Origin: an uncultured Methanosarcinales archaeon
Lineage (GTDB): Archaea > Nanobdellota > Nanobdellia > Woesearchaeales > JAHWIC01
Assembly (NCBI GenBank): GCA_964447855.1
Contig: CAYUUH010000001.1
Span: 369 to 64,368 of the forward strand
Direction: 5' to 3'
DNA length: 64,000 nucleotides
Both the position numbers and the translations under genes were made by a program. Shown piece by piece: positions 289 through 63,625 of this stretch; the first letter of the stretch is position 1, and each line of letters begins with the position of its first letter. The notes beneath the pieces were generated by a model that did no database searches, was not told the DNA's origin, and saw only the letters and a list, made by a program, of their open reading frames with translations.

Positions 289-296
289 CAAATGTA
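289..296 (-). promoter_or_regulatory. Bacteroides-type -7 box (TACATTTG) on the minus strand, about 20 nt upstream of the ATG at 266
   Basis: Reverse complement of caaatgta. A TTTG (caaa on + at 311-314) lies upstream. Confidence 0.35.
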
Positions 297-437
297 AAAT
301 GAATTTTTGACAAAAGCAAATAAAAAGAGAAATATTTACTAAAAGGGCATAGTTAGGGCTAATGTTTTGTCTTTTGGTTTCCTACTTTTGAAGTCTTTTA
401 ACCTTCCGTGAAAACCGTAGTAGAAGCCTCAAATCGT

Positions 438-545
438 TTCTCTCAGCTCTGGGTGGTGGATACAGCCCCCCTTACCCCCCAACCATAATTTTAATTGGGA
501 AGGCTCCACCACCCGTCGCCTCGCTTCACTTCATCTCGTCATCTA
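438..545 (-). repeat. Copy A of a diverged about 110-bp structured element (10-bp stem GGGTGGTGGA/TCCACCACCC at 451-514 enclosing a C6-rich loop). Copy B is at 49888-50003.
   Basis: Aligned by eye to 49888-50003. Shared CT-rich 5' flank, CCCCCC..CCCCCC loop and CGTCGC-TCG..CGCTTCA..TTCAT 3' flank. Stem sequences differ but stay perfectly complementary. Confidence 0.55.
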
Positions 546-846
546 TGTATTACTGCCATACATCAGCACCGAACGACCCTTGGGGCTCGATTACTAATGC
601 TTTTGATACCGTAGTAATTATGGTATTACGCTTATGGGGTGGTCTGGCGTACTCACTACCACCAAATAAAAAACCCATTAAGATGTATTTGGCATCAGAA
701 TGGGTGTATGGGGTAGGAGGGAATAGTTTATGTCTTGCATTTGATGTAAGAACGAAGCCGTAAGGCTCATGTCCCTCCCGTGAAAATCTACTGCAAATCT
801 AATCAATAAAATCATCAAATACAAATTTATTTAACATAAACTTCTG

Positions 847-854
847 CAAAGATA
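847..854 (-). promoter_or_regulatory. Minus-strand TTATCTTTG-type -7 box (distal leftward promoter)
   Basis: + strand caaagata at 847-854 is the reverse complement of tatctttg. caaa at 873-876 is a possible -33 element. Confidence 0.35.
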
Positions 855-903
855 AACAATATTTTTAATATGCAAAATATTATTAGTTTTATTTTAAAAA
901 ACT

Positions 904-941: not shown

Positions 942-1040
942 AGTTCATAATTTAATGGTTTTGCCCCGCCCGACAGTGGTTTTCATAGTTAGATTTAGGG
1001 TTTGAGTTTGATTTCATTACAATACGGGCGGGGTTTTTTT
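942..1040 (+). ncRNA. Candidate small structured RNA: promoter-proximal transcript closed by a 9-bp GC stem (963-972 / 1025-1033) and a U7 tract (1034-1040)
   Basis: Promoter immediately upstream. GCCCCGCCCG ... CGGGCGGGG TTTTTTT. No plausible ORF. Sits 100 nt upstream of a tRNA. Confidence 0.3.
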
Positions 1041-1145
1041 AACGGTTGAGTGTCGCAACTTCGGGGTCTAGGACGACATAGGGATCGCCTAACGGCAATG
1101 GTCTCGCCAAAGATGACCCTGCGGAAAGTTCTTTGTAACGATAAT

Positions 1146-1216
1146 AGTGAGGTGGAGAAGCGGTATCTCAAAAGGCTCATAACCTTTGGTCGGCAGTTCG
1201 ATTCTGCCCCTCGCCA
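1146..1216 (+). tRNA. tRNA-Met (anticodon CAT; elongator Met or Ile2 type)
   Basis: Hand-folded cloverleaf. Acceptor 1146-1152 pairs with 1209-1215. U8, D stem GAGA/TCTC with G18G19. Anticodon stem AAAGG/CCTTT with loop CUCAUAA. 4-nt variable loop. T stem GGCAG/CTGCC with loop TTCGATT. Discriminator A1216. CCA is not encoded. Position 1:72 is an A:C mismatch. Confidence 0.8.
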
Positions 1217-1312
1217 CAAAGGTAGCGGAATCCTTGACACCGCACTAGCGGGTTTGGACTGGGGTATCCCCGATCGCCCGCTAAAGTGAAAATTCTGTAA
1301 TACTCTATATAA

Positions 1313-4061: not shown

Positions 4062-4824
4062 CGTAATATCGCTTGGCGCGGGGAAGCAGAGTAGTTATAT
4101 GCTACTTAACGCACTTGAAGGTAAATATAAATACAAACCCGACTTTGCCATATTTTCAGATACGGGATGTGAACCACAGTATGTGTATGACTATTTAGCT
4201 TGGTTGAGACCTTACGTATGGGATAAGTACAACTTTTACATAGAGATTGTATCAGCAGGTAATCTCATGACCGATGTGGTTGATTATGTAGATGGTAAAA
4301 AGAAGAGGGTTGCCATGCTACCACTTAAACTTGAAGATGGCGGTCTTGTAATGAGGCAATGTACGATGGATTATAAGATAGCACCACTAAGAAAACACCT
4401 GCAATCAATAAGAAACAAGCAGAGAGTACGGCTATGGATTGGCATATCCCTTGATGAAGCAGAGAGAATGAAGGATAGCCCCGTAAAGTATATAGAGCAT
4501 TGGTATCCATTGGTTGAAACACAAACACGAATAGACTCTATTGTAAATTGGTTTAAAGTTAATAATCTACGAGAACCAGGAAAGAGTGCTTGTCTTATAT
4601 GCCCATTTCACCATGATAATTATTGGAAAATATTTAAGAAGCAGTTTCCGTTGGAATTTGAAGAGGCGTGTAAGTTTGATGATAAAATAAGAAACTACCC
4701 AAATCTAAGAGCAAATACCTATTTGAGTTCGCAAAGAGTCCCACTAAGGGATATAGACTTTACACAAGAGGCAAGCCTATTCCCCGATCTCATTGAGGAA
4801 TGTCACGGTCTTTGTGGTTTATAG
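4048..4824 (+). CDS. PAPS reductase / PP-loop ATP pyrophosphatase family protein
   Basis: N-terminal VISLGAGKQSS matches the SGGxDS-like PP-loop of the PAPS_reduct family. C-terminal Cys pair CLICPFHH. Confidence 0.6.
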   Translation: MEMINVISLGAGKQSSYMLLNALEGKYKYKPDFAIFSDTGCEPQYVYDYLAWLRPYVWDKYNFYIEIVSAGNLMTDVVDYVDGKKKRVAMLPLKLEDGGLVMRQCTMDYKIAPLRKHLQSIRNKQRVRLWIGISLDEAERMKDSPVKYIEHWYPLVETQTRIDSIVNWFKVNNLREPGKSACLICPFHHDNYWKIFKKQFPLEFEEACKFDDKIRNYPNLRANTYLSSQRVPLRDIDFTQEASLFPDLIEECHGLCGL

Positions 4825-4866
4825 AAAATAATTATCAAAATATTTGCTTTTGTCGTTTTGTTGTTT

Positions 4867-4874
4867 TATCTTTG
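4867..4874 (+). promoter_or_regulatory. -7 box TATCTTTG
   Basis: ttttatctttgcgtaaaataaaaatATG. ATG at 4889. Confidence 0.45.
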
Positions 4875-4888
4875 CGTAAAATAAAAAT

Positions 4889-5754: not shown

Positions 5755-5782
5755 GGCAGAACTAAAAATTCTGCCTTTTTTA
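5755..5782 (+). terminator. intrinsic terminator (GGCAGAA/TTCTGCC stem followed by a T-run)
   Basis: agagggcagaactaaaaattctgccttttttatttg. Confidence 0.5.
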
Positions 5783-5818
5783 TTTGTTTTTGTCAAATCT
5801 TTGTTTTACATTTGCCCT

Positions 5819-6876: not shown

Positions 6877-6968
6877 TGGAGGAATAGTCGGGTCTGATCA
6901 TCCGATGAAAAGGATAAGTGTCGAGTCCTTTCCTCCTTTTTTTCGACACAATACAAAACGACACAAGC

Positions 6969-7484
6969 ATGAAAGAAATTAAGTTAACAAGGGGAATGGT
7001 TGCATTAGTAGATGACCGGGATTATGACTTCTTAATACAATGGAAGTGGCATGCCAATCCTAGTACTACGAATGGATGTTTTTATGCAAGAAGAACAATT
7101 AGGGTGGGAAAGGGGGTTAAGCGTATTTATATGCATAGGCTTATTATGCAGGCAGATAGTGGCATAAAAGTGGATCATATAGATAGGAATGGGCTAAATA
7201 ATCAAAGATCAAACTTAAGATTGTGTACACGCCAACAAAATACCTTTAATACAAATAACCGCAAAAGGAAGTCCCCTTATAAGGGAGTAAGCAAAAAGGA
7301 GGACTATGATAGAAAAAAACCATGGAGAGCGTGTTTTAAGGCAAACGGAAAGCAAATGCTTTTTGGACATTTTGAAACAGAAATAGAGGCTGCCATTTGT
7401 TATGATATAAATGTCTTAAAGTTTAGAGGAGAGTTTGCTGTTTTAAATTTCCCTGAGAGATATAAAAATGGAGTATATGAATAA
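6969..7484 (+). CDS. HNH homing endonuclease with a C-terminal AP2 DNA-binding domain
   Basis: VDHIDRNGLNNQRSNLRLCTRQQN is an HNH motif. YKGVS...WRA...GHFETEIEAAICYD...FRGEFAVLNFP is an AP2 domain. Paralogous to 52755-53225. Start moved to ATG 6969 (MKEIKLTRG), which aligns with the paralog's N-terminus. Confidence 0.8.
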   Translation: MKEIKLTRGMVALVDDRDYDFLIQWKWHANPSTTNGCFYARRTIRVGKGVKRIYMHRLIMQADSGIKVDHIDRNGLNNQRSNLRLCTRQQNTFNTNNRKRKSPYKGVSKKEDYDRKKPWRACFKANGKQMLFGHFETEIEAAICYDINVLKFRGEFAVLNFPERYKNGVYE

Positions 7485-9350: not shown

Positions 9351-11694
9351 TCAATACGAGCATCTATATAAGCCCGCTAAGAAGTGGGATGTTATCAATG
9401 ACGGAGACCCCGATTTAAAGAGTGTCTTTTTTAGCCTACCATCTCCGCCTAACTTAAAACTCATAGATGGCTATGGTTTGCATCCAGACGAACAATACTT
9501 CCGTAGAACTGAAGTACCCAAGAAACTATTGGAGTTAGAAGATAGGGCATTGGGTTTGCTATACGACATACAGAAGGGCAACAACCAGGAGGCTATTCAG
9601 GGATACAAACTGTACCTAAAGTATTGGGAGTTATTTGAGGCAGAGTCAGAACACTTAGAAAAAGAGATCGAATGGCTAAGAAAAACGTGGTGGCACAGGA
9701 CTGAAGGTTATTGGTTCTTTAATGATGGTCAGCCTACGTTCATCCCCCCAGAGTACTACGACTACCTTAACTTCTATTTTATTGCTGAATCAAAGTGCTA
9801 TCCCGAATATAGGGACGACATAAGAAGGAAGAATTGTTTTATTTGGTATTTAATGAATACTACTGAAACCTTTGCCGACATTCATGCCGAAACAGGTGAG
9901 GCACTAAAGGTTGATGGAAAGTATAAGATGTTAGACCTTGGCAGGCGTACCTTTCTGGGGGATATCGAGCCGAAAACGAGGAGGGTTGGTGCATCGCATG
10001 AGGGCATCCACTGTCTACTTGTAGGTGCTATGACACACGCATCACACTATGGGACTATCATATCTCTTGAGGGGCAAAACGCCAAAGCACTCTACGAACA
10101 AAAGTTACTACCCGCATGGGATACCTATCCAATGTGCCTTAAGCCAATGTGGGAAGGGAATAGAAAACCGAGTGTACTTAAGCTATCTGCACCGCCTAAT
10201 GTGTACCACGTTAAGGGACTCAATAGTTCCATATCGGTAACAGAGAGTGCGGGGGAGAAGAAGTCAGAAGGAAAGAGACTTAACAGAATACTTAGTGACG
10301 AAACTGGGAAGACGGAGGCTGCGGATGCGGCAGAGAGGCATCACGTAAACAAACTTACCATGTCAACTGGTATGGGTATTAACATTATTGAAGCTGCTTA
10401 TTGTAAGAATCCTTCAACGGTGGATGAGATGACAGCCGGTGGTATGGCTTACTACAAACTCTGTATGCTCTCTAACTTCTATAAGAGGGTTCCTGCACTA
10501 GGACAAACCCCCGAAGGACTTGCAAGGGTATTTTTACCCGCCTATAGGCGATTAGAGGGCTATATAGACCGTTTTGGCATGTCGGTGGTAGACACACCCA
10601 CAGAAAGACAAAAGAGGCTTACACCCCTATCTGTGTTCGCCATGAGTGGCATGGGCGCAAAGGAGATGCTACAACAGCAAAGGGATACTCTTTTAGCTGA
10701 CGGTTCTCCACAGGCTATGGAAGCGTACCGAAGTTTGAGAAGGAAATCTCCGTTTACTTGGGCTGAGTGTTGGTTAGGAACTAGCGGTAATGTGGGCTAT
10801 AACCTTGAGATAATAGATAAGCGACTTGGTGAGATAAATAGAATGAAGTCATTTAACAAACCGCCATATAAGGTTGGTTATTATTACAGGGAGAAGGGGG
10901 GTCAGCACGACAGAGTGCGATGGGCTAACGACCCGCAAAAGCCTAAATTCAGAGTATCTATGGAACTGCCGGATACCATGACTAACCGGATGACCATGAT
11001 GGAGATTTGGGACTACAGCAAGGGCAAGTTCGTACCTACCTACGCCCCGCTAGAGGGATACAGATTCACCATAGGAGCAGATAGCTTTAGAAATATTAAT
11101 AAGAACGACTATAAGAGCTTTATGAAACTTGGAGCGTCAGCGTCTAACTCTAGACAGTCTGATGGGGGTATCTGCATGATATGGGAGTATGATGATAGCG
11201 TTGATGGTGGTAAGCCCCGCAGAGATTGGCAAAGCGGCAGGGTAGTACTTACTTATAGATGGCGTCCCGCAACATGGGAAGAATACGTTGATGATGTGGT
11301 AATGGCTGCGCAATATTGGGGAGCAATGATATATCCTGAATACAACGTAGAGGCTATTGTAAGAGATATCTACGCTAAGGGCTACGGTGGTTACTTCATC
11401 TACGATATGGATATCCAGACAGGCAAGCCCAAACCAATGCCGGGAGTTTACACCACACCGGGGGTTCTGCAAGAAATGATAACCGACACTAAGGACTATA
11501 TAGAATTTCATGGGCATAACGAAAACCACGATGATCTGCTAAGTGAATTTAAGGGTCTTCAGGGGGTTGAATCGTTCACGCACATGGATTTGCACGTAGC
11601 ATTTGGCATGGCACGAAAGGGCAGTAAGTCCCGCCATAGGGATATAATGATGCAGGGGGATGGTGAGACTATGGTTATTGACGGTTTATTCTAA
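9334..11694 (+). CDS. large phage protein, possible terminase large subunit (unverified)
   Basis: 789 aa. A deviant Walker-A-like TRRVGAS sits near residue 215. Assignment rests on size and position only. Confidence 0.3.
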   Translation: MKHPTNQYEHLYKPAKKWDVINDGDPDLKSVFFSLPSPPNLKLIDGYGLHPDEQYFRRTEVPKKLLELEDRALGLLYDIQKGNNQEAIQGYKLYLKYWELFEAESEHLEKEIEWLRKTWWHRTEGYWFFNDGQPTFIPPEYYDYLNFYFIAESKCYPEYRDDIRRKNCFIWYLMNTTETFADIHAETGEALKVDGKYKMLDLGRRTFLGDIEPKTRRVGASHEGIHCLLVGAMTHASHYGTIISLEGQNAKALYEQKLLPAWDTYPMCLKPMWEGNRKPSVLKLSAPPNVYHVKGLNSSISVTESAGEKKSEGKRLNRILSDETGKTEAADAAERHHVNKLTMSTGMGINIIEAAYCKNPSTVDEMTAGGMAYYKLCMLSNFYKRVPALGQTPEGLARVFLPAYRRLEGYIDRFGMSVVDTPTERQKRLTPLSVFAMSGMGAKEMLQQQRDTLLADGSPQAMEAYRSLRRKSPFTWAECWLGTSGNVGYNLEIIDKRLGEINRMKSFNKPPYKVGYYYREKGGQHDRVRWANDPQKPKFRVSMELPDTMTNRMTMMEIWDYSKGKFVPTYAPLEGYRFTIGADSFRNINKNDYKSFMKLGASASNSRQSDGGICMIWEYDDSVDGGKPRRDWQSGRVVLTYRWRPATWEEYVDDVVMAAQYWGAMIYPEYNVEAIVRDIYAKGYGGYFIYDMDIQTGKPKPMPGVYTTPGVLQEMITDTKDYIEFHGHNENHDDLLSEFKGLQGVESFTHMDLHVAFGMARKGSKSRHRDIMMQGDGETMVIDGLF

Positions 11695-11734
11695 AATACT
11701 TCCTTAAATATTTGTTTTTCTCAAATATCTGTTT

Positions 11735-11742
11735 TATCTTTG
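11735..11742 (+). promoter_or_regulatory. -7 box TATCTTTG at the head of the small-gene block
   Basis: gttttatctttggtt. ATG at 11758. Confidence 0.45.
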
Positions 11743-48568: not shown

Positions 48569-48586
48569 AATAGATTAAAAGCGATA

Positions 48587-48610
48587 GGGGCTGATTTTCG
48601 CCCCTTTTTG
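48587..48610. terminator. intrinsic terminator at the convergence point (GGGGC/GCCCC stem followed by TTTTTG)
   Basis: ggggctgattttcgcccctttttg. Confidence 0.5.
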
Positions 48611-48668: not shown

Positions 48669-49751
48669 TTATTTAATATACTCACTATCACTCCCCACTG
48701 AGTTAATCATTAAATGCACATCAAAGGATAGCACCGGAACAGATGCGTTACCTCCTGTGTTGTAAGGACAAGCACCCGCAAACTCTGTACTAGCATTTGT
48801 CGTATCCCTATATATTCTGAATTGAACTATATCTGATAGTGTTGTCCCTACGGGGACTGCTATTGCTGCTGCGTCAGATATCTGATGTATAGTTCCCGAT
48901 GTATATGGGAATATTAGGTCTGTACACTTTAGCTTAGTCCATGCCGTAGTCTTGGCACTACCGTTCTTCTGCCATCTATATTCTAGAAGTAGATTAGGTG
49001 TATAGTTCTTAGCTTGAAACCAGTGTATGTGAGGGTATATTGACGCTGTTAAGTCTCTGTCGTGGTTTAACTGAACATTCTTATAAAGGAAGTCTGCAAG
49101 TGCGGGGTTTACATTATAAGTAGCGTTATAAACAAGGTCTACTGTAGACTCTGCAAGGTTTATAGATACACCTGCTCCGTTAGACTGTAAGCCGAGTGCG
49201 TCCCCTAATTCATCACGCCATGGTCTTGCGTCTCCCGCCATAGTCTGATGACCATTGCTGTTTATATCTGTATAATTAACGCTAGTACCAAATCTCCCAC
49301 CCGTGGCAGTTATTGAATGAGTGCCAAGGTCTACATTCTGTAATGCACCCGTGTAAGGGACGTAGCCTATTCCACTGTCATCCCCTGAAAAGACTAACTC
49401 AAGAACTGTAGATATTAGTCCATTACCTGATTCTAATGCTACTCCTACTTTAAGATAAGGGTTATCTGCTGATTTAGCTATCTTACAAGTACCAAGACTT
49501 ACGTTGTCATTGCTCTTTGCCCCTCGTAATATATCATCCTTCAAGGTGTTGCCCTGAACTAAGACTTTAGCGGTGTCTCCTATGGTAGCTATCTTGCACT
49601 TTTGGCGGTATGGAACGGCTTCGGTCACACAGCCTATAGCACGGCTTGAATTAGGGATAGTGTACTCAAACGCATTGGGATTGGAACTTGATATCGAAAC
49701 CAAAGCCCCGACACGGCTCACAGATTTGGTATTATTGATGAGTGTTATCAT
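48669..49751 (-). CDS. fibre-like structural protein (Gly/Ser/Thr/Asn-rich)
   Basis: 360 aa with β-type composition, transcribed leftward. Confidence 0.45.
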   Translation of the reverse strand: MITLINNTKSVSRVGALVSISSSNPNAFEYTIPNSSRAIGCVTEAVPYRQKCKIATIGDTAKVLVQGNTLKDDILRGAKSNDNVSLGTCKIAKSADNPYLKVGVALESGNGLISTVLELVFSGDDSGIGYVPYTGALQNVDLGTHSITATGGRFGTSVNYTDINSNGHQTMAGDARPWRDELGDALGLQSNGAGVSINLAESTVDLVYNATYNVNPALADFLYKNVQLNHDRDLTASIYPHIHWFQAKNYTPNLLLEYRWQKNGSAKTTAWTKLKCTDLIFPYTSGTIHQISDAAAIAVPVGTTLSDIVQFRIYRDTTNASTEFAGACPYNTGGNASVPVLSFDVHLMINSVGSDSEYIK

Positions 49752-49887
49752 TGGTACAAAGATAAGGCTTTTTGGCGACAGCGCATAGCTCCCCCTAAAG
49801 CCTAACTTGATTGCTGATTAGTTTATTCTGTTGTCTGTGTTATAGTTTATTGTGTTACTGATCGGTGGTCTTAGGCGGGTCACTCGC

Positions 49888-50003
49888 TCACTCCTCTCTC
49901 TGGGTTGGTAGATTGCCCCCCAAACCCCCCACAGAGATTATTCTGTAGGAGCTACCAACCCGTCGCTTCGTCGTTTCGCTTCATTATTCCCGTCGTGTCA
50001 TTC
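49888..50003 (-). repeat. Copy B of the structured element (10-bp stem GGGTTGGTAG/CTACCAACCC at 49902-49961)
   Basis: See copy A at 438-545. Lies 140-250 bp upstream of the start codon at 49751. Confidence 0.55.
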
Positions 50004-50265
50004 TGCGGTTACACGCCCCCACTACCAATCTCACCGAGCCTATAGACTAATACTTTTCATACGTGATTCTAAATTCCGTAACCTCAGTTATGATGACTTA
50101 TGCTTGCTGAGGACAATAAGCCCCATCTAAAAAGGGTGAGTCCCTAAGAAGAAGGGCTCAGAGTTAATGTTACGCAGAGGTAAGTATTAACACCTTCTCC
50201 TTTACGGGACTCGTGTTTTTTAAATCTTTGCTTTCTTGGTAACATAACTCTGAGTTAAATCACCA

Positions 50266-50273
50266 CAAAGATA
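50266..50273 (-). promoter_or_regulatory. Minus-strand TTATCTTTG -7 box
   Basis: + strand caaagata within ccacaaagataagc. Confidence 0.4.
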
Positions 50274-50296
50274 AGCATTATTTTTAATATGTATTT

Positions 50297-50545: not shown

Positions 50546-50961
50546 CTATTTATCAAGTGTAACTTAACTGAAACTCTATCATACCCTTCATGGAAATAAG
50601 GTAGATCAATAGAGTGAGAGCATAGGTGTTCATATCTAAACTCAAGTCTTTTGACGGCATAGGCTACTCCAATCTTGTACTCTGACTGCAAAGGCTGATA
50701 CTCCACGAAAGAATAAGGCTTAATGTACGTTTTTAAGTCCGTGTAAAGCACTACTCCTTTATAGTTAGCTGATACTTCTAAGGTAGAGAACATAGTATTC
50801 TTAAAGTGAGCTATAGCCGTTGGTGCGTTGTACTGATAGATACTGACATATCTATCCTCGTAGCCCGCCTCAATAGATGAGTTGAGGTAAACCTGGCAGT
50901 AAATATTCTGTGATATTAGTACTGTGAGTACGACTATTGCGATATTTTTAATGGTTTTCAT
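50542..50961 (-). CDS. secreted β-rich protein with an N-terminal signal peptide
   Basis: MKTIKNIAIVVLTVLISQNIYC signal sequence. Alternating aromatic pattern. Confidence 0.4.
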   Translation of the reverse strand: MKTIKNIAIVVLTVLISQNIYCQVYLNSSIEAGYEDRYVSIYQYNAPTAIAHFKNTMFSTLEVSANYKGVVLYTDLKTYIKPYSFVEYQPLQSEYKIGVAYAVKRLEFRYEHLCSHSIDLPYFHEGYDRVSVKLHLINR

Positions 50962-51003
50962 AAGTCAAATGTAAAACACATATTTGACATTTCCAAATTT
51001 ATT

Positions 51004-52754: not shown

Positions 52755-53225
52755 TTACTTGAAATTAAGGTTCGCAAATTCTCCGTGTATTTTAAACGCA
52801 ACTGCGTCTGCGGCTCTCGCAGCTTCCTCCTCTGTCTCAAAATAACCAAGCCAAATCTGTTTCCCGTCTATCCCTCTTATTTTTGCACATACTTTCCCAT
52901 TATCATAAGTCACATACCTATAACCGGAAGCCCCCGTAGGCTTTGAGTTAGCTGAATTTTGTTTGCGTGTACAATTTCTTAAATTAGATTTTTGGTTATT
53001 AAGCCCATTATGATCAATGTGGTCAACGACCATATTATTCGGGGTATTCATAATTAACCTGTGCATCCATACAGCACTCCATACTCCATTCGGACAAATA
53101 TTTCTAACTACATAAAACCCTCCCCCTGCGTCTAATCGTGCAAACCACTTCCATTGCATCAAAAAATCATAATCTTCATCATCAACCAATGCAAACTGCC
53201 CTCTGTTAAGTTTAATTTTCTTCAT
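52755..53225 (-). CDS. HNH-AP2 homing endonuclease (paralog of 6969-7484)
   Basis: MKKIKLNRGQFALVDDEDYDF...VDHIDHNGLNNQKSNLRNCTRKQN...YFETEEEAARAADAVAFKIHGEFANLNF. Confidence 0.8.
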   Translation of the reverse strand: MKKIKLNRGQFALVDDEDYDFLMQWKWFARLDAGGGFYVVRNICPNGVWSAVWMHRLIMNTPNNMVVDHIDHNGLNNQKSNLRNCTRKQNSANSKPTGASGYRYVTYDNGKVCAKIRGIDGKQIWLGYFETEEEAARAADAVAFKIHGEFANLNFK

Positions 53226-53985
53226 TATGTCGTTTTAAAATCATTGATATTCGTCTACGTGGACAAACCCAGTACTGTTTACCATTATCCCACAGTCCTG
53301 TCTGAGATAATCTTTCAAGGTAAAATAAAGCAGTCTTCTTGTCAAACAAAACCTCATCACCAATCCTTAAATCTTCGATATGGCTGTATTCAGTTCTAAT
53401 ATACGCTTTAGGGGCGTCGCCTATGAAAGTGATAATTCCCCTTGACTTATCTATTTGAGTGTCAGAAAACGCATCTAAATGGCTTTGTTTGGCAAAATAT
53501 ACGGGTTCACACAGGACAAAGCCGTTCAACATACCCGTTACTGTCTTTTTAGTCGGAGGAACTGCCCATTTATTGACATAGACTTCACGCTTGTAGCAAT
53601 AACAGTCAGCGTAGGGTACTGATTTATATAATTCACCTTCGCAAATCAACTGAACTGAATTTTTCGCCTCCAGCAATGAAAACCAAACCATATCATCTTC
53701 AACTAAATCTATGGTCGTTTCCCAATCTATACTCTTTGGGTCTTCGGGGTTGAAGTAAAGACCATGAGGCACTTTTGCCACGTAACCTATATTCTCTGCT
53801 AGGTTCGCTGAGTGGCTGTCATCGCCCTCCGCAAAAACCTCATCCTCCCGAAAGCCGATTACGACTCCCGCATTGGTACGCAACCCCTCAGCCCTGCGAG
53901 TGATTTTAATCAGCACATGGTTAAGAGGTATCTCTGCCCTCTCAAGTTCTTCTCTGGTTATTTCAATCTGTGGTCTTGTTGGCAT
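53212..53985 (-). CDS. hypothetical protein
   Basis: 257 aa. Confidence 0.4.
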   Translation of the reverse strand: MPTRPQIEITREELERAEIPLNHVLIKITRRAEGLRTNAGVVIGFREDEVFAEGDDSHSANLAENIGYVAKVPHGLYFNPEDPKSIDWETTIDLVEDDMVWFSLLEAKNSVQLICEGELYKSVPYADCYCYKREVYVNKWAVPPTKKTVTGMLNGFVLCEPVYFAKQSHLDAFSDTQIDKSRGIITFIGDAPKAYIRTEYSHIEDLRIGDEVLFDKKTALFYLERLSQTGLWDNGKQYWVCPRRRISMILKRHNEEN

Positions 53986-55685: not shown

Positions 55686-55742
55686 AGCTTTAAGTTTTGA
55701 TTACACTGACAAATGTAAAACAGATAAATGAGAAATCCAAAT

Positions 55743-56390
55743 TTATTTTAAGAAATCTTTTATAATATCGTCATGGAGTTTATACGATTTGGTCATTCCC
55801 CATATTGTTTCTTTAGGACTTAGGTAGCCTACTATGCCCGCTCTATGCCCTGCAACCATAAGTTTGACTCCTTGCCGATGACAGGCACGGCTGAATAAGA
55901 CGTCAGCCATATTCGGATGAGGAAAATCTTGCATTGATAATTTGACCATTGATGTATCGAAGCAGAGAACCCCCGTTCCTGCGATGTCTATGACATGATC
56001 CCCGACCACAGAATTTAAGCATCTGTAGTTCTCTTTGAAGTATTTGAAGCCTCTCGGAGGTCGGTCATACCTTTTACCGTGCAGTGACACCGGACAGTTG
56101 TATTGAGCAACCTTCTCCCGCAAGAGCGAAAAGAACTCATCAGTATAAACTAGATCGTCATCACAAATGAAGACTAATCCTTCGACTTCATTGATAAACT
56201 CAAACTTATGAGCGTCTCCCTTACTATTGTCACACATCTTGAAAGTCACATTTGGAATGTCAAGTTCAGGAACAACAGCGTAGTTATTTAAAGCCACATA
56301 GATATGGTCTACATGAGGGGATATTGACTGCAATACAACAGGCAATAGGTTTCTTCTGTTTCCAAGGCTTGCTAAGTGTGCTGTTATCAT
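55743..56390 (-). CDS. glycosyltransferase (GT-A-like, DxD motif ICDDDL)
   Basis: 215 aa. Confidence 0.45.
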   Translation of the reverse strand: MITAHLASLGNRRNLLPVVLQSISPHVDHIYVALNNYAVVPELDIPNVTFKMCDNSKGDAHKFEFINEVEGLVFICDDDLVYTDEFFSLLREKVAQYNCPVSLHGKRYDRPPRGFKYFKENYRCLNSVVGDHVIDIAGTGVLCFDTSMVKLSMQDFPHPNMADVLFSRACHRQGVKLMVAGHRAGIVGYLSPKETIWGMTKSYKLHDDIIKDFLK

Positions 56391-57001
56391 CGGTGCATCA
56401 TACTACTATAATGTTCATCCTGAATAGTTATCAATGATTCCTTGACCTGGTAGAAGTGGAAGCCTTGTCTATTTAGCTTTCTGCTTATGTATGCACCCAC
56501 TCCGCTACTGCCTCTTATCTGACCATTAACCCTGTGTAGTGGTGGTATAACGCCCACCATAGCAAAGAACTTATCCTCGCAAAGAAAGCACATGTCCACC
56601 CATCCTGTCTGCCATACATTACCCTTATCAACGGGTAACATCCTTGTCCAACAAGACTGTCCTAGCCTATCCATATAGAGGTTTAAGCATATCTTTTGCC
56701 GGTCTTCAATGCCTTCCAATATCTCTATTGCCTTTGCAATTTGCGAATCGCAAACAAGGAAGTCATCAGGTATCATAAAGTAATAATTAGCCTGTGGTCT
56801 ATGCCTCCAAAGCATATTCACAAGTTTCCAATAGCCCAACTTACCAAGGTGTTGCTTAGGGTTGATATTAAGAGCCCCACTAATGCTATAATTATTCCCA
56901 TCATGTGCTACTATAACTTCTCCTAGTCCCTGTAAAGAATTAACAAGTCTTTGACAGGACTCTTGTCGGTTATAGGTCGTTATGAGGAAAGCTATGTCCA
57001 T
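56387..57001 (-). CDS. family 2-like glycosyltransferase
   Basis: AFLITTYNRQES and IPDD motifs. Confidence 0.5.
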   Translation of the reverse strand: MDIAFLITTYNRQESCQRLVNSLQGLGEVIVAHDGNNYSISGALNINPKQHLGKLGYWKLVNMLWRHRPQANYYFMIPDDFLVCDSQIAKAIEILEGIEDRQKICLNLYMDRLGQSCWTRMLPVDKGNVWQTGWVDMCFLCEDKFFAMVGVIPPLHRVNGQIRGSSGVGAYISRKLNRQGFHFYQVKESLITIQDEHYSSMMHR

Positions 57002-58245
57002 ATCTTAAGTGCGTCTTTATTATAATCATCTACATCTAGAGACACCTGCTCCCTTAGTGCCATATATCTTTCCTTTGGTATCTTGGGGCAAAAGTAATTA
57101 TGTGGACTTTGGTGGGAAAACAACGACATATCATAAGTATCATTGATTAGTCCCATAGCCTTTACCTCATCAAAAAGATCAGTTCCTTTATATGGAGTGA
57201 AAAAACTGAGTGTTATTCTAAATGGTTTCAGTGATTTAACAAAGGCTATTGATTCAAGTATAGAATCTTCTGTGTCATAGGGAAACCCTATAATCATATA
57301 TGCCTTCCATTGTACTTTATGTTTATTAAGTATTTCAGATGCTCTCATAAAATCACGGGTAGTCTCTCCCTTTTGAATAGCCTTAAGTGTTTCATTATCC
57401 CCGCTTTCTATACCCAAACTCATTTGTCCACACCCAGAGTTTTTCATCATCTGTACCATCTCGTCTGTGATAGAATCTGCACGTGTATCACACCTCCATA
57501 AGGCAGGGATATAATATTTAGAGCAGAACTCTACAAGACGCTTCTTATTTGCCGTAAATGTTTCATCCCAAAATGTAAAGTAATCAGACCCGAAGGAAAA
57601 ATGAACGTGTTTCATCTCTTCGAGTATTCTGTCTATTGACTTATAGGTAACTTTTCTATTCCACATAATCTTAGATGCACAAAAGGAACATCTAAAAGGG
57701 CATCCCCTTGTAGATAGAACATGTGCATAGCCATTAGGCGAATAAGTATCTAACAACAAGTCATAGTTTGGAAATGGGGTTTCGTCAAGATTCTTTAATC
57801 TCCCCCCATGGGATTCATATTCACCTCGAAAGACATCTACCCCATCGGGATAGACACTAGGTTCATTAGAAGGATGGTTCCCCCCCACTATCACAGGAAT
57901 ATTCCGACTCTTTGATATGTCAATAATTTTTAATGCAGATTGAAATTTTACATTAAGCACATTAATCCCAATTCTATCGGGGTATATATCATCAATAACA
58001 TTAACTAATTCTTGCCAAATATGGTGTTGTGGGTTATGGAGTGCATCACGGTAGATGTCATAATGGTTGGCTCTCTCAGAATATCCCGCATAATGTACAT
58101 TTTGCCCCACCTCCATATTCTTAATATAAACATCATCTCCGTCTGATGACATCTGTGACCCCACCGCTAAGAGAGATAAGGGGACATAATCTTGCTCCAA
58201 TCCTAAAAAACGATAAAACGGGGGGTTAATAAGAAGTGTTTTCAT
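56992..58245 (-). CDS. cobalamin-binding-domain (class B) radical SAM enzyme
   Basis: CPFRCSFC is a CxxxCxxC cluster. An N-terminal B12-binding-like Rossmann segment precedes it. Confidence 0.7.
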   Translation of the reverse strand: MKTLLINPPFYRFLGLEQDYVPLSLLAVGSQMSSDGDDVYIKNMEVGQNVHYAGYSERANHYDIYRDALHNPQHHIWQELVNVIDDIYPDRIGINVLNVKFQSALKIIDISKSRNIPVIVGGNHPSNEPSVYPDGVDVFRGEYESHGGRLKNLDETPFPNYDLLLDTYSPNGYAHVLSTRGCPFRCSFCASKIMWNRKVTYKSIDRILEEMKHVHFSFGSDYFTFWDETFTANKKRLVEFCSKYYIPALWRCDTRADSITDEMVQMMKNSGCGQMSLGIESGDNETLKAIQKGETTRDFMRASEILNKHKVQWKAYMIIGFPYDTEDSILESIAFVKSLKPFRITLSFFTPYKGTDLFDEVKAMGLINDTYDMSLFSHQSPHNYFCPKIPKERYMALREQVSLDVDDYNKDALKIWT

Positions 58246-58246
58246 T

Positions 58247-59311
58247 CTAACATCCTAAAACAAGCCTTATGACGGTATCTGATACATTATCTTTTTTATA
58301 ATCAGGCAATACTTCCCATCTCATAAATAAGTTCTTAATATTATGATAAGACCTTAGTATAGTTGGTGTATCTGTACCCGCAAGAATAAGAGAACCATTC
58401 TCTGTCAATTCTTGTCTCTCCGTGGTATTTCTAAGCACTATGCACGGCACTCCGAATAAAGAACACTCCTCTGGTACTGTACCTGAATCAGTAAAGACAA
58501 GACTTGCATATTTCTCAAGTTTAACAAAATCAAAGAATCCGAGTGGTTCAATAATCTGAATATTGGGGTGTAGTTCTATCCCGTTAGCATTAAGTCTGTC
58601 TTTTGACCTTGGATGAAGCGGATAGATTATCTTATTATTTTCAGCTATGTAGTTAATCGCTTTAAATATACTCTCAGTCCTCGTAGGGTTATCAACATTA
58701 TCGGCACGGTGAAGCGTCAGTAATATGTAATCTTTATGGTGAAGCGTCAATTTACCGAGAATAGAGCTATTATCAATACTTAAGGAGTAATAATCAAGCA
58801 CCTCTTTAATCGGATTACCTATCTTAAATGTTTTGTTCTTTGAATACCCTTCTCTTATCAGATTGTCATAAGAGTTATCTGTGTATGGTAGGTTGTAATA
58901 AGAGTGTGAATCAATAATCCTTCTATTGGTTTCTTCTGGAACATCTAAATCATAACACCTATTACCCGCCTCAAGGTGAATAACCTTAATCTTACGTTTG
59001 GTTGCAAGAATTGATAGAAGTCCTGAATTGGTATCGCCAAGGGTAACTATCTTCTCTGGCATGAACTCATTAAGTATCTTCTCTAACTCGGCGAAACCAT
59101 TACTAAGGAAAGCACCCAAAGATTGCTGTTGACTAAAAATATAGTCAGCCTTTCTTATTTTGAGTTCTGAAAAGAACAAGTCACTAAGGCGTGTATCGAA
59201 GTTCTGATTAGTAAAAAGTAGCTTATGGTCACAGACGTTATCTAGCTTTCTGATTATAATAGAAAGTCTAATAAGTTCTGGGCGTGTGCCGACAATAGTT
59301 AAAACCCTCAT
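58247..59311 (-). CDS. UDP-N-acetylglucosamine 2-epimerase family (WecB / FnlC / WbvD-like, non-hydrolysing)
   Basis: MRVLTIVGTRPELIRLSIIIRKLD N-terminal signature. 354 aa. Confidence 0.7.
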   Translation of the reverse strand: MRVLTIVGTRPELIRLSIIIRKLDNVCDHKLLFTNQNFDTRLSDLFFSELKIRKADYIFSQQQSLGAFLSNGFAELEKILNEFMPEKIVTLGDTNSGLLSILATKRKIKVIHLEAGNRCYDLDVPEETNRRIIDSHSYYNLPYTDNSYDNLIREGYSKNKTFKIGNPIKEVLDYYSLSIDNSSILGKLTLHHKDYILLTLHRADNVDNPTRTESIFKAINYIAENNKIIYPLHPRSKDRLNANGIELHPNIQIIEPLGFFDFVKLEKYASLVFTDSGTVPEECSLFGVPCIVLRNTTERQELTENGSLILAGTDTPTILRSYHNIKNLFMRWEVLPDYKKDNVSDTVIRLVLGC

Positions 59312-60330
59312 AAGCCTAAGTCTTGTTTGATAATGTCTAAACCCAAGAGCATAGCCTTAGTTTCTTCAAGAGTAAGTCTCTTTGTGTTATGAGACGTGTA
59401 CTCTACCTCTTGTTCGTTATTTCCTTCAACAAAGTACTTGGCGTAGTTTAGGTCTCTTGTGTCTGAAAAAATCCTGTAGTAAATGCCTATATCAGCCGAG
59501 TTTGCCATTTCTTCCGCATTTAAGAGCGTTTCAAAGAGTTTCTCCCCGTGTCTAGTACCTATCACCCGAATTGGGTTAGATACGCCATAAACGCTTAAAA
59601 TAGCCTCTGCGAGGGTTTGTATTGTACAGGCAGGTGCTTTATGTACAAAGGTATCTCCATTACCACCATTCTCATAAGCATAAACAACAAGGTCAACAGC
59701 CTCTTCAAGTGTCATCATAAACCTCGTCATGTCGGGATTGGTTATGGTCAGCGGTCTACCCTCTTTTATCTGTTTAATAAAAAGTGGAATAACAGAACCC
59801 CTTGACGCCATCACATTGCCATACCTAGTTGCACAGAAAGATATTCCTTCGGGAAGGTTTCTAGACTTAGCTAGCATAACCCTCTCTGCAAGTGCCTTTG
59901 TCATACCCATAGCTGATGATGGATAACACGCCTTATCCGTTGAAAGGACTATTACTTTGTTGACACTGTTTTTAATTGCAGAGTCAAGCACATTCTCAGT
60001 GCCTATAATATTAGTCTTAACCGCCTCGATAGGGAAGAACTCACAGGATGGTACTTGCTTTAGTGCGGCAGCATGAAAGACAAAATCAACACCTTTCATA
60101 GCTTCATCAACACTACGGAGACTTCTTACATCACCTATGTAGTATTTTATCTTTGGGTTATTATACTGCCACCTGATATCTTCTTGTTTCTTCTCGTCCC
60201 TGCTAAAGATGCGAATCTCTTTAAGGTCAGAGTTTAAAAATCTATCGAGTACGGCATTGCCAAATGAACCCGTACCCCCTGTAATGAGCAATACTCTATC
60301 TTTGAACATTCCTTTTGAATAAGTTAACAA
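59308..60330 (-). CDS. UDP-GlcNAc 4,6-dehydratase/5-epimerase, CapE/FnlA/WbvB family
   Basis: ILITGGTGSFGNAVL...EIRIFSRDEKKQ...HAAALKQVPSCEFFPIEAVKTNIIGTENVL. Confidence 0.8.
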   Translation of the reverse strand: MLTYSKGMFKDRVLLITGGTGSFGNAVLDRFLNSDLKEIRIFSRDEKKQEDIRWQYNNPKIKYYIGDVRSLRSVDEAMKGVDFVFHAAALKQVPSCEFFPIEAVKTNIIGTENVLDSAIKNSVNKVIVLSTDKACYPSSAMGMTKALAERVMLAKSRNLPEGISFCATRYGNVMASRGSVIPLFIKQIKEGRPLTITNPDMTRFMMTLEEAVDLVVYAYENGGNGDTFVHKAPACTIQTLAEAILSVYGVSNPIRVIGTRHGEKLFETLLNAEEMANSADIGIYYRIFSDTRDLNYAKYFVEGNNEQEVEYTSHNTKRLTLEETKAMLLGLDIIKQDLGL

Positions 60331-63083: not shown

Positions 63084-63625
63084 AACTTATTAAAGCATAA
63101 AATTGTGTTAGAAAACCAAGGTAGTGTACTATGTGACCTGAGTAACGTAGATGTTTTCGCATCATAAGTAAACCCACGCTTCTCTACCTCTGATATAACA
63201 TAATCGTTATTCTGGCAGTTTACATGACCTGTTCCTCCCTGACCAACAATAGCCCAACTCATACATATATGTCTTGATGCTGACTTGCAAATATTGTCAA
63301 TAAATACCTGCTCGTATTCTTTTGGGATGTGTTCTCCCACCTCAAGGCATAAGATAAGTTCAAAAAGACCAACATCAGTAGGTATAGAGAAGTCTCTTAC
63401 GCTACATTGACCATTAGTTATCTGAGATGTAAGGGGATTCCCGTCAAAACCAACACAAAAGATACCATGATCGAGAAAAAACTTAGTATAACTGCCATCA
63501 CCGCATCCTATATCAACTATTGAATTAACATCATAGGCTTGCATTATAGCGTAATTTAGGCTTTTATCCCACATGTGGGTTTTAATTTCGTCTTCTGAAG
63601 TCCAGTAACCGTGGTCGTGTATCAT
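63080..63625 (-). CDS. class I SAM-dependent methyltransferase
   Basis: VDIGCGDGSYT (motif I). Confidence 0.6.
   Translation of the reverse strand: MIHDHGYWTSEDEIKTHMWDKSLNYAIMQAYDVNSIVDIGCGDGSYTKFFLDHGIFCVGFDGNPLTSQITNGQCSVRDFSIPTDVGLFELILCLEVGEHIPKEYEQVFIDNICKSASRHICMSWAIVGQGGTGHVNCQNNDYVISEVEKRGFTYDAKTSTLLRSHSTLPWFSNTILCFNKL

What the first reader, a model, noticed from the sequence alone, without database searches (positions are those of the whole stretch)
438..545. Two diverged copies of an about 110-bp hairpin element 49 kb apart, with compensatory stem substitutions (copy A)
Region 438-545 and region 49888-50003 align along their full length: a CT-rich lead-in, a perfect 10-bp stem, a loop with two C6 runs, then a CGTCGC..TCGCTTCA..TTCAT tail.

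The stems differ in sequence (GGGTGGTGGA/TCCACCACCC versus GGGTTGGTAG/CTACCAACCC), yet both remain perfectly complementary. That is the covariation signature of selection for structure, either an RNA hairpin or a single-stranded DNA cruciform.

Both copies lie 140-280 bp upstream of the start codon of a leftward gene (the truncated ORF ending at 266, and the fibre-like gene 48669-49751). Each is downstream of a distal leftward TTATCTTTG-type promoter (around 850 and 50270), so both could sit in long 5' leaders. On the minus strand the loops would be G6-rich.

Candidate roles are a cis-regulatory leader or riboswitch-like RNA, an antitermination or processing site, or a replication or packaging signal.
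Basis: seen in the sequence. Interest (0 to 1): 0.75.

Follow-up and report, generated by a model that had tools for sequence, protein, structure and literature searches.

The report
Paired G-tract RNA hairpins in phage
A Bacteroidota phage carries two diverged copies of a gene-free unit whose core is a conserved hairpin built around two runs of six G's. It most likely works as RNA made from the leftward strand, belongs to no catalogued RNA family, and its function is still open.

Summary
Regions 451-514 and 49902-49961 are the only two C6-N3-C6 sites in the window, and each is the other's best non-self match. Each has a perfect 10-bp outer stem, and five of those pairs differ between the copies with full compensation.

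The structured strand is the minus strand. There the 5' G6 run pairs with a pyrimidine arm through G.U wobbles, which would be A.C mismatches on the plus strand, and the folds are about 10 kcal/mol more stable. The 3' G6 run is largely bulged.

No Rfam family matches. Each hairpin lies in an ORF-free unit of about 500 nt, downstream of a shared 25-nt Bacteroidota-type promoter. Each also lies upstream of a gene that has its own promoter, so the "long 5' leader" reading is weakened.

All related phages recovered carry ordinary genes in these two slots and lack the element, so it is accessory cargo. Hairpins with the same 17-nt core recur between genes in many unrelated phage contigs, but homology beyond the core is not shown. 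The core matches vertebrate mitochondrial CSB-II.

My best guess, at low confidence, is a signal acting on the transcribing polymerase. This is a new orphan RNA motif of moderate interest.

The parts
451..514 (-). Hairpin A. The outer stem P1 pairs 505-514 with 451-460. The inner stem P2 pairs 495-503 with 475-482. The invariant core UGGGGGGUAAGGGGGGC is the complement of 465-481.
   Evidence: As RNA the minus strand folds at -42.6 kcal/mol, against -33.2 for the plus strand.
515..545 (-). Purine-rich 5' flank of hairpin A (GAUGACGAGAUGAAGUGAAGCGAGGCGAC), partly conserved in copy B.
438..450 (-). Purine-rich 3' flank of hairpin A (AGAGCUGAGAGAA). ACCCAGAG is shared with copy B.
49902..49961 (-). 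Hairpin B. The outer stem P1 pairs 49952-49961 with 49902-49911. The inner stem P2 pairs 49942-49951 with 49926-49935. The core is UGGGGGGUUUGGGGGGC. The 3' G6 run sits in a bulge of about 14 nt.
   Evidence: The minus strand folds at -45.3 kcal/mol, against -32.4 for the plus strand.
49962..50003 (-). Purine-rich 5' flank of hairpin B (..AAUAAUGAAGCGAAACGACGAAGCGAC).
49888..49901 (-). Purine-rich 3' flank of hairpin B (AGAGAGAGGAGUGA).
794..876 (-). Three tandem Bacteroidota-type promoters (TTTG-N17-21-TAnnTTTG) heading module A. The outermost holds the 25-nt box shared with module B.
   Evidence: 13 such promoters in the window against 1.5 expected.
50266..50290 (-). Distal promoter box of module B (ATATTAAAAATAATGCTTATCTTTG).
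715..779 (-). 5' hairpin domain of module A (GGGAGGGA...UUCCCUCC).
667..705 (-). Terminator-like hairpin followed by U6AUUU inside module A, upstream of the G-tract hairpin.
   Evidence: -12.8 kcal/mol, z = -3.7.
50157..50254 (-). Long 5' hairpin domain of module B (CUCAGAGUUAUGUUAC.../...GUAACAUUAACUCUGAG).
593..612 (-). Second conserved block of module A (ACGGUAUCAAAAGCAUUAGU). Its counterpart in module B is at 50047-50066.
50047..50066 (-). Second conserved block of module B (CACGUAUGAAAAGUAUUAGU).
289..320 (-). Proximal promoter of the 92-aa gene (ATG at 266). It lies between element A and the gene, and belongs to a conserved promoter family.
   Evidence: conserved in relative L383.
49757..49765 (-). 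Proximal -7 box TTATCTTTG, just upstream of the ATG of the 360-aa gene (49751).
   Evidence: read directly from the sequence.

Best explanation
**Shown**
- The element is one strand-specific structure, in two diverged copies.
- On the minus strand a 10-bp outer helix stacks on a 9-10-bp inner helix.
- In the inner helix a pyrimidine arm pairs with the first of two invariant G6 runs, using G.U wobbles.
- The second G6 run is largely unpaired, in a 3' bulge.
- Purine-rich single strands flank the hairpin.
- Each copy sits about 300 nt downstream of the same strong promoter type, inside an ORF-free unit of about 500 nt.
- Close and distant relatives have ordinary genes in that position instead.

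**Inferred**
- The unit is transcribed leftward as a non-coding RNA, probably early in infection.
- The hairpin is its functional core.

**Mechanism I commit to, at low confidence**
- The element acts in cis on the transcribing polymerase. It would be a pause, stop or read-through signal that decides whether transcription from the strong distal promoter continues into the downstream gene.
- The pyrimidine arm would compete for the G-tracts and so set how strong the block is.
For: **Structure and strand**
- Perfect inverted repeats at the stated coordinates.
- Five compensatory pairs in the outer stem, read directly from the sequence.
- The inner stems are rebuilt with different sequence in the two copies.
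- Each copy has 2 G.U pairs in the inner stem (read from the sequence and the fold), and the minus strand folds about 9-13 kcal/mol better.

**Constraint on the core**
- The 17-nt core is invariant at 15 of 15 specified positions, while its flanks have diverged.

**Transcription context**
- Both copies share the 25-nt promoter box.
- Module A is headed by three tandem promoters.
- The G-tracts lie on the non-template strand for these promoters.
- Each downstream gene has its own promoter (read from the sequence).
- No ORF is shared between the two modules.

**Recurrence in other phages**
- Among viral contigs with GC <= 0.56, 56 of 71 unique sites carrying the same 17-mer lie between genes.
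- Many of these hairpins pair the G-tracts with an upstream pyrimidine arm. 23 of 121 sites (119 from viral loci plus the two window copies) had a duplex energy of -25 kcal/mol or better, against 2 for a distant control segment.
- About a third of the pairs in the G-runs are G.U.
- The spacer covaries with the 5' arm: UAG with CUA, UAA with UUA, UUU with AAA, AAG or GAA.
- In one subfamily, sigma70-like or TAnnTTTG promoter-like hexamers (read by eye, not scored) sit just upstream of the first hairpin of the element, so the transcription start would fall at the element.
- In T7-like contigs that encode a single-subunit RNA polymerase, it sits between the terminase gene and the early genes.

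**Precedent**
- CSB-II (ACCCCCCCTACCCCCCC in fish, PMC4714352) stops mitochondrial and T7 RNA polymerases.
Against: - There is no transcript data. Promoters, strand and RNA ends are all inferred.
- No U- or T-rich tract follows the G-tracts, unlike what I recall (from memory, not checked here) at CSB-II, and unlike intrinsic terminators.
- The conserved hairpin sequesters one or both G-tracts, which argues against G-quadruplex formation rather than for it.
- Module A already has a canonical-looking terminator upstream of the element.
- The element is absent from all relatives recovered. That fits accessory cargo better than an integral operon regulator.
- A covariance model of the best-defined phage subfamily does not recognise the window copies (5-7 bits). 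The support drawn from other phages is therefore analogy, not homology.
- Bacterial genomes carry the same 17-mer in unrelated repeat contexts.
- Only two sequences support the covariation.
Confidence: 0.3

Rival explanations
1. The unit encodes a trans-acting accessory non-coding RNA. It would be made early from a strong promoter. The hairpin would display the invariant G-rich bulge and the GA-rich flanks as a binding platform or decoy for a host or phage protein or RNA, serving host takeover or anti-defence.
For: - Both modules are ORF-free cargo in slots where relatives carry varied small genes directly after the early-type promoter.
- Each module has its own promoter, and each downstream gene has a separate one.
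- There are two paralogues, with invariant unpaired nucleotides and covarying stems.
- A FopS-like small RNA lies in the same divergent promoter region, so this phage does encode small RNAs.
Against: - No 3' end or terminator can be seen after the element.
- No partner is known.
- No precedent explains a G6-N3-G6 requirement.
- In other phages, similar hairpins lie in 5' UTRs 50-100 nt from a start codon, which looks cis-acting.
Confidence: 0.25
2. The hairpin is an RNase III-type processing or stability site. About 20 bp of stacked double-stranded RNA with an asymmetric 3' bulge would be cut. The cut would separate the non-coding early transcript from downstream message, or mature or stabilise it, as in T7 early transcripts.
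For: - The outer and inner stems give 19-20 stacked base pairs with a one-sided bulge.
- Related phage hairpins are 17-25 bp.
- In T7-like contigs the hairpin sits at the head of the early region, before the first early ORFs. From memory, T7 has its first RNase III site (R0.3) in a comparable place.
- RNase III is present in essentially all bacteria.
Against: - As far as I know, RNase III needs helix geometry rather than a particular sequence. It therefore does not explain the invariant G6-N3-G6.
- It also does not explain why the element is dispensable in relatives.
- No cleavage data exist.
Confidence: 0.15
3. The element is a put-like processive antiterminator RNA. The nascent hairpin would bind RNA polymerase and make it resistant to downstream terminators. 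It has two copies, each after an early promoter, as with putL and putR of phage HK022.
For: - Two sequence-related copies lie downstream of the same promoter type. Copy A sits at the head of what may be a long leftward gene block, if the roughly 73-kb source contig is circular (an inference).
- HK022 putL lies just after PL, and putR about 270 nt after the PR start. Both act without protein factors (PMC9378689).
Against: - Terminator-like sites are not enriched in the leftward block (10 found against 9.5 expected).
- The only clear terminator lies upstream of element A.
- The element is absent in relatives with the same operon layout.
- The architecture differs: one stacked hairpin, against two stems in a V shape.
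Confidence: 0.1
4. The function is at DNA level. The element would be a cruciform, or a protein-binding, replication-origin or packaging site. One version is a transcription-primed R-loop origin resembling ColE1 or mitochondrial OH.
For: - The two elements coincide with the two switch points of GC skew and gene orientation.
- The core is identical to CSB-II.
Against: - GC skew simply follows gene strand here.
- Origins and packaging sites should be conserved in relatives, but the element is missing from all of them.
- Inner-stem pairing needs G.U, which becomes A.C on the other strand, so a symmetric cruciform is disfavoured.
Confidence: 0.08
5. There is no present function. The two copies would be decaying remnants of a duplicated non-coding or mobile segment.
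For: - The element is accessory and absent in relatives.
- The flanks have diverged strongly.
- No homologues were found beyond the core.
Against: - Five out of five compensatory changes in a 10-bp stem, and 15 out of 15 invariant core bases amid about 50% divergence, are not expected under neutral decay.
Confidence: 0.07

Closest known systems
[quoted passage not shown]
   Same: - The core sequence is identical: two G6-7 tracts separated by TA(A/G) on the RNA-like strand (fish ACCCCCCCTACCCCCCC; string hits).
- It lies downstream of a promoter in a non-coding control region.
- It acts co-transcriptionally and stops both mitochondrial and T7 RNA polymerase (PMC4176368).
- Some phage contigs that carry the motif encode a T7-type single-subunit polymerase.
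   Different: - CSB-II works through a G-quadruplex or hybrid quadruplex, and I know of no conserved pyrimidine pairing arm there.
- Here the G-tracts sit in a covarying hairpin, and no T-rich tract follows them.
- The window phage uses host-type promoters.
- No evolutionary link is shown. Convergence or plain coincidence is possible, given a low-complexity 15-mer.
HK022 putL/putR antiterminator RNAs
   Same: Two sequence-related structured RNA copies in one phage. Each lies downstream of an early promoter, one close to it and one about 270 nt away. They act in cis without protein factors.
   Different: put is about 70 nt with two stems in a V shape and a triplex. No G-tract core is known for it. 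There is no evidence here of terminators being overridden.
T7-type RNase III processing hairpins (R0.3, R1.1)
   Same: About 20 bp of interrupted double-stranded RNA with an asymmetric internal loop, lying in non-coding stretches of early phage transcripts.
   Different: Those sites have no invariant G-tract core. No cleavage evidence exists here.
Uncharacterised phage early-leader hairpins with the same 17-nt core (IMG/VR loci such as L050, L069, L010, L006, L021)
   Same: - The core UGGGGGGUNNGGGGGGC forms the 3' arm of a long G.U-rich hairpin, paired with a pyrimidine arm.
- The sites are intergenic and mostly point the same way as the next gene.
- The spacers are UAA, UAG or UUU.
   Different: - Nothing outside the core is significantly similar.
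- The covariance model R1 scores the window copies at only 5-7 bits.
- Those elements usually pair both G-tracts and lie 50-100 nt from a start codon.

Membership tests
Any Rfam 15 family | A covariance-model match at or above the family's gathering score. | tested here: not met
   - Only tRNA-Met passes in the whole window.
- Nothing overlaps the hairpins themselves (451-514, 49902-49961) at E <= 10 on either strand; the one chance-level hit inside module A lies outside the hairpin (Ysr209, 593-624, 16 bits against a threshold of 59).
- There are no hits at the motif in 21 related-motif loci.
Phage early-leader RNA subfamily 'cluster 3' (model R1, built here) | A significant score against a covariance model built from 10 members (GNRA hairpin, GUGGGGC box, UGAC box, G-tract hairpin). 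| tested here: not met
   With filters off, the window copies score 6.6 and 5.5 bits, and only over the inner hairpin. Upstream regions show no significant similarity (z <= 2.7).
Intrinsic (Rho-independent) terminator | A GC-rich hairpin followed directly by a U-tract. | tested here: not met
   On the minus strand both hairpins are followed by AGAGCUGAGAG or AGAGAGAGG, with no U run. The scans list no terminator there.
Riboswitch / conserved cis-regulatory leader | Conserved upstream of the same gene family in related genomes. | tested here: not met
   Nine fetched loci from relatives that share the flanking genes (49-93% identity) lack any G5+N1-6G5+ motif and carry ORFs in the slot.
CSB-II-type G-tract transcription stop | [quoted passage not shown] | tested here: met
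   G6-N3-G6 lies on the minus strand, downstream of minus-strand promoters. The promoters are inferred from sequence only.
CSB-II-type G-tract transcription stop | G-quadruplex or hybrid-quadruplex formation, with premature 3' ends just downstream. | not testable with these tools
   This needs transcription assays comparing K+ with Li+ and using 7-deaza-GTP. The predicted hairpin sequesters the first G-tract, which argues against free quadruplex formation.
put-type antiterminator RNA | Two related copies, each downstream of an early promoter. | tested here: met
   This is a similarity of layout only.
put-type antiterminator RNA | Homology to known put RNAs and suppression of downstream terminators. 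| not testable with these tools
   No put model or sequences were available. Terminator-like sites in the leftward block are at the chance level.
RNase III processing site | About 20 bp or more of stacked double-stranded RNA, often with an asymmetric internal loop. | tested here: met
   Predicted stems of 10 + 9-10 bp are contiguous on the 5' strand, with a 3' bulge of up to 14 nt (14 nt in copy B; in copy A four extra pairs split it into smaller loops). Cleavage itself cannot be tested here.
tmRNA (considered because of a GGGGC...UUCGACGGG-like box in other loci) | Detection by ARAGORN or the Rfam tmRNA models. | tested here: not met
   (0 tmRNA in the window and in 47 loci).

The most novel reading that the evidence does not exclude
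G6-UA(A/G)/UUU-G6 hairpins may be a widespread and so far undescribed class of phage early-region signals that work like mitochondrial CSB-II. Two G-tracts in the nascent RNA and on the non-template strand would stall or terminate RNA polymerase, including T7-type single-subunit enzymes. The upstream pyrimidine arm would act as an anti-quadruplex switch. Under this reading, the CSB-II mechanism of mitochondria, whose transcription and replication enzymes are of T-odd phage type, has a counterpart in phages. It could even have originated there.
Probability: 0.1. Interest if true: 0.85.

Novelty: new variant of a known kind. Interest (0 to 1): 0.5.

Why it matters
- If the element is an RNA-level signal, it defines a new structured phage RNA motif that is missing from Rfam.
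- Its core is unusually rigid (U-G6-U-N2-G6-C).
- The same core recurs in the non-coding early regions of very different phages, including T7-like, inovirus-like and Bacteroidota phages.
- That would point to a shared target, such as RNA polymerase or a nuclease, or to a shared physical mechanism in which a G-tract hairpin competes with a G-quadruplex.
- The sequence identity with mitochondrial CSB-II gives a directly testable hypothesis about polymerase stalling.
- In this phage the element is accessory cargo in hypervariable slots behind early-type promoters. In other phages such positions are, as far as I know, often used for host-takeover and anti-defence functions, so an RNA occupant would be notable.
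- If instead it is only a processing hairpin, it is ordinary.

Tried and rejected
**Searches that found nothing**
1. Rfam at gathering and at E <= 10 thresholds, on the window and on 21 motif-bearing loci: no family.
2. A tmRNA or permuted-tmRNA idea, prompted by GGGGC..UUCGACGGG-like and GGUGCAACUCC boxes in other loci: ARAGORN and Rfam were both negative.
3. BLAST of the element against cultured phages: only chance hits. The window phage has no near relative in INPHARED. The large terminase subunit is only 23-24% identical to those of Flavobacterium and Cellulophaga phages.
4. An architecture-specific pattern, G6TNNG6C-N7-12-ACCCAGAG, in IMG/VR: 0 hits.
That scan was wasted.
6. Strain variants: the only other contigs found (Logan SRR14492172) are 100% identical to the window.

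**Tests of a link to other phage elements**
7. One superfamily joining the window copies to the IMG/VR clusters. Upstream similarity is not significant. Model R1 recovers few other clusters and does not recover the window copies. The idea is dropped as unproven.
8. The 17-mer scan in bacterial genomes returned mostly unrelated GC-rich repeats and cyanobacterial palindromic elements. The 17-mer alone is therefore not diagnostic.

**Ideas rejected for the window modules**
9. Modules as decayed copies of the ORFs that relatives carry in the same slots: tblastn finds nothing.
10. A leader peptide or small ORF shared by the two modules: none.
11. A formal pair count on a MAFFT alignment of the two hairpins: MAFFT puts the arms out of register.

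Full report
**1.

The two regions contain perfect 10-nt inverted repeats:
- 451-460 / 505-514 (GGGTGGTGGA / TCCACCACCC)
- 49902-49911 / 49952-49961 (GGGTTGGTAG / CTACCAACCC)

C6-N3-C6 occurs only at 466-480 and 49916-49930. The expected number is 0.09, and no shuffle of 100 reached two matches.

A local alignment of the two regions scores 47. The 500 shuffles gave a mean of 16.4 and a maximum of 29. Region B is the best non-self match of region A anywhere in the window on either strand. BLAST at E <= 0.01 misses the pair and reports only the two promoters, so the similarity is short and patchy.

Reading the stems position by position, pairs 5, 7, 8, 9 and 10 differ between the copies. Every change is a double, compensatory one. 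The inner part of the hairpin is also rebuilt with different sequence in each copy.

**2. Which strand carries the structure**

Folded as RNA, the minus strand gives -42.6 kcal/mol (A) and -45.3 kcal/mol (B). The plus strand gives -33.2 and -32.4.

On the minus strand the outer stem P1 stacks directly on an inner stem P2:
- In A, the arm CCUUCCCAA (extended to CCUUCCCAAUU in the fold) pairs with UUGGGGGG.
- In B, CUCCUACAGA pairs with UCUGUGGGGG.

Each inner stem contains two G.U wobbles. These would be A.C mismatches on the plus strand.

The 5' G6 run is therefore base-paired. The 3' G6 run is bulged: a run of about 14 nt in B, and partly paired to GCCU in A.

Both flanks are purine-rich on this strand (..AUGAAGYGAA..GCGAC on the 5' side, ACCCAGAG.. 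on the 3' side). The 17-nt core UGGGGGGUNNGGGGGGC is invariant at all 15 specified positions, although the rest of the two modules is barely alignable.

**3. Genomic setting**

The window belongs to a phage of Bacteroidota:
- There are 13 promoters of the type TTTG-N17-21-TAnnTTTG, against 1.5 expected.
- A FopS-like small RNA is present below threshold.
- The nearest cultured relatives of the large terminase subunit are Flavobacterium and Cellulophaga phages, at 23-24% identity.

Both hairpins lie about 300 nt downstream of the same 25-nt promoter box, at 847-871(-) and 50266-50290(-). Module A has three such promoters in tandem at 794-876.

- Each downstream gene has its own promoter between the element and its ATG. 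For A this is 289-320(-), a member of a conserved family of about 50 bp. For B it is TTATCTTTG at 49757-49765(-).
- Module A contains a terminator-like hairpin plus U6 at 705-667(-), upstream of the element.
- Neither module contains an ORF that is shared with the other.

The elements therefore sit in ORF-free transcription units of about 500 nt. They are not in obligatory leaders of the neighbouring genes.

**4. Relatives lack the element**

I reached relatives through the flanking proteins.

*Locus B.* Contigs L131-L138 carry a 361-aa homologue at 49-51% identity. They hold a conserved 166-173-aa ORF where module B lies.

*Locus A.* The downstream gene encodes 92 aa.
- Relative L383 is 93% identical in DNA over that gene, and L381 is 81% identical.
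- Both share the FopS-like and divergent-promoter region on the other side.
- L381 even keeps the ATATTAAAAATAATTCGTATCTTTG promoter.
- Between these anchors the relatives carry different protein genes: 370+137+57+86 aa in L383, 139+61+42 aa in L381, and others in L384-L387.
- None of these loci has a G5+N1-6G5+ motif.
- tblastn finds no trace of those ORFs in the window modules.

Both modules are therefore accessory cargo in hypervariable slots behind an early-type promoter.

Terminase relatives at 56-62% identity also lack the motif within 10 kb upstream. The only other contigs of this phage are 100% identical to the window, so no third sequence is available to test the covariation.

**5. 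The same core elsewhere**

A 15-base pattern is expected to occur roughly 100 times by chance in that collection (my own estimate). The hits are nevertheless far from random:
- Of 71 unique sites in contigs with GC <= 0.56, 56 lie between genes.
- The spacer is UAA, UAG or UUU in 66 of 114 viral sites. In bacterial genomes TAA or TAG account for only 5 of 126.
- In 23 of 121 sites (119 from viral loci plus the two window copies) the motif forms a duplex of -25 kcal/mol or better with the 60 nt upstream, against 2 for a distant control segment.
- About a third of the pairs in the G-runs are G.U.
- The spacer covaries with the 5' arm, and the helix continues beyond the motif with many pair types.

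Several sequence clusters exist:
- One cluster has sigma70-like or TAnnTTTG promoter-like hexamers (read by eye, not scored) placed so that transcription would start at its first hairpin, which has a GNRA loop. It runs into a PD-(D/E)XK nuclease gene.
- A T7-like cluster places the hairpin between the terminase gene and the early region. One of these contigs encodes a single-subunit RNA polymerase.
- Other clusters precede DnaB, KilA-N, DUF1064 or glutaredoxin genes.

Outside the core, the window copies share no significant similarity with any of these. A covariance model of the best-defined cluster scores the window copies at only 5-7 bits and recovers few other clusters.

Bacterial genomes contain the 17-mer in unrelated repeats.

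I therefore treat these phage hairpins as analogues that share a core, not as proven homologues.

**6. Known families**

No Rfam family matches, in the window or in 21 motif-bearing loci. No tmRNA is detected.

A literature string search shows that CCCCCCCTACCCCCC and CCCCCCTTACCCCCC are the core of vertebrate mitochondrial CSB-II. [quoted passage not shown] These stop both mitochondrial and T7 RNA polymerase and generate replication primers (PMC4176368).

The layout also resembles HK022 putL and putR: two related copies, each after an early promoter (PMC9378689). It further resembles T7 RNase III sites, which are about 20 bp of interrupted helix.

**7. Mechanism**

What is shown:
- A strand-specific hairpin with compensated stems in both copies.
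- An invariant G-tract core.
- A position in accessory, ORF-free, promoter-driven units.

What is inferred:
- Transcription of the minus strand.
- Function as RNA.

I rank the mechanisms as follows:

| Mechanism | Confidence |
|---|---|
| Cis-acting control of transcription elongation (pause, stop or read-through between the strong distal promoter and the separately promoted gene) | 0.30 |
| Trans-acting accessory RNA or decoy | 0.25 |
| RNase III-type processing or stability site | 0.15 |
| put-like antitermination | 0.10 |
| DNA-level origin, packaging site or cruciform | 0.08 |
| Non-functional relic | 0.07 |

The first option gains from the CSB-II precedent. In it, the pyrimidine arm would tune how available the G-tracts are.

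Evidence against the leading model:
- No U-tract follows the G-tracts.
- The hairpin sequesters the G-tracts.
- A terminator already lies upstream in module A.
- The element is dispensable in relatives.

The lack of terminator enrichment in the leftward block counts against the put-like rival, not the leading model.

GC skew switches sign near both elements, but this only tracks gene strand.

**8. Verdict**

This is a real, structured, orphan non-coding element in two paralogous copies. It is a new RNA motif of unknown function. It has a suggestive but unproven link to a recurrent phage G-tract hairpin and to CSB-II. Interest is moderate. The decisive data are transcript-end maps and transcription assays.

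Noticed in passing
window 962-1043 (+): A small-RNA-like unit lies downstream of a plus-strand promoter (about 905-932). It gives a full-length but sub-threshold match to Rfam RF04319, the Bacteroidetes FopS sRNA (27.3 bits against a gathering score of 56, E = 0.035). It ends in a GC hairpin plus U7. The region is conserved in relatives L381 (84.5% identity) and L383.
   Followed up: partly
window 1146-1217 (+): tRNA-Met (CAT), directly downstream of the FopS-like unit and divergent from module A.
   Followed up: no
window 289-326, 4816-4882, 5765-5814, 11693-11742, 50956-50989, 55710-55767: A family of conserved promoters of about 50 bp (TTTG.TTTTGTCAAA...TGTTTTAYNTTTG), present on both strands. 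It is distinct from the 25-nt box that heads the two modules, which suggests at least two promoter classes.
   Followed up: partly
window 56992-60330 (-), and beyond 64000 in L379: A nucleotide-sugar and glycosylation gene cluster in the phage. It comprises a B12-binding radical SAM protein, a UDP-GlcNAc 2-epimerase, a PseB/FlaA1-like Polysacc_synt_2 dehydratase, another epimerase/dehydratase (window 62106-63083) and the queried 181-aa protein (weak methyltransferase hit, window 63080-63625). Just outside the window there are two glycosyltransferases.
   Followed up: no
window 52956-53236 vs 6955-7241: An inverted repeat of 293 nt at 67% identity (E = 1e-11) between the leftward and rightward gene blocks. 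It probably reflects paralogous coding segments.
   Followed up: no
window 48586-48605: A bidirectional terminator-like hairpin (AGGGGC...GCCCCT, with T-runs on both sides). It lies exactly between the convergent gene blocks.
   Followed up: no
L381 3287-4414 (-): The relative L381 carries a TnpB/Cas12f-like gene (OrfB_IS605, Cas12f1-like_TNB) directly after the 92-aa gene homologue. This is another sign that the neighbourhood is a hotspot for accessory or mobile cargo.
   Followed up: no
L006 4790-5000; also L019, L036, L070, L076, L092: In T7-like contigs the G-tract hairpin is flanked by imperfect direct repeats (GGACTCA-CAA-GGACTCA-GGTGAA upstream, GGATCTA-CAA-GGATCTA-GGTGAA downstream). 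The variable part changes in parallel in both copies across phages. This hints at alternative pairings or paired binding sites.
   Followed up: partly
L139-L258 (bacterial genomes): The same 17-mer lies inside cyanobacterial palindromic repeats (..CCCCCCAGAAUUGGGGGGUUAGGGGGGC). It also lies in Rokubacteria and alphaproteobacterial repeats of the form UGGGGGG-N3-GGGGGGC-loop-GCCCCCC. These repeat classes were not identified.
   Followed up: no
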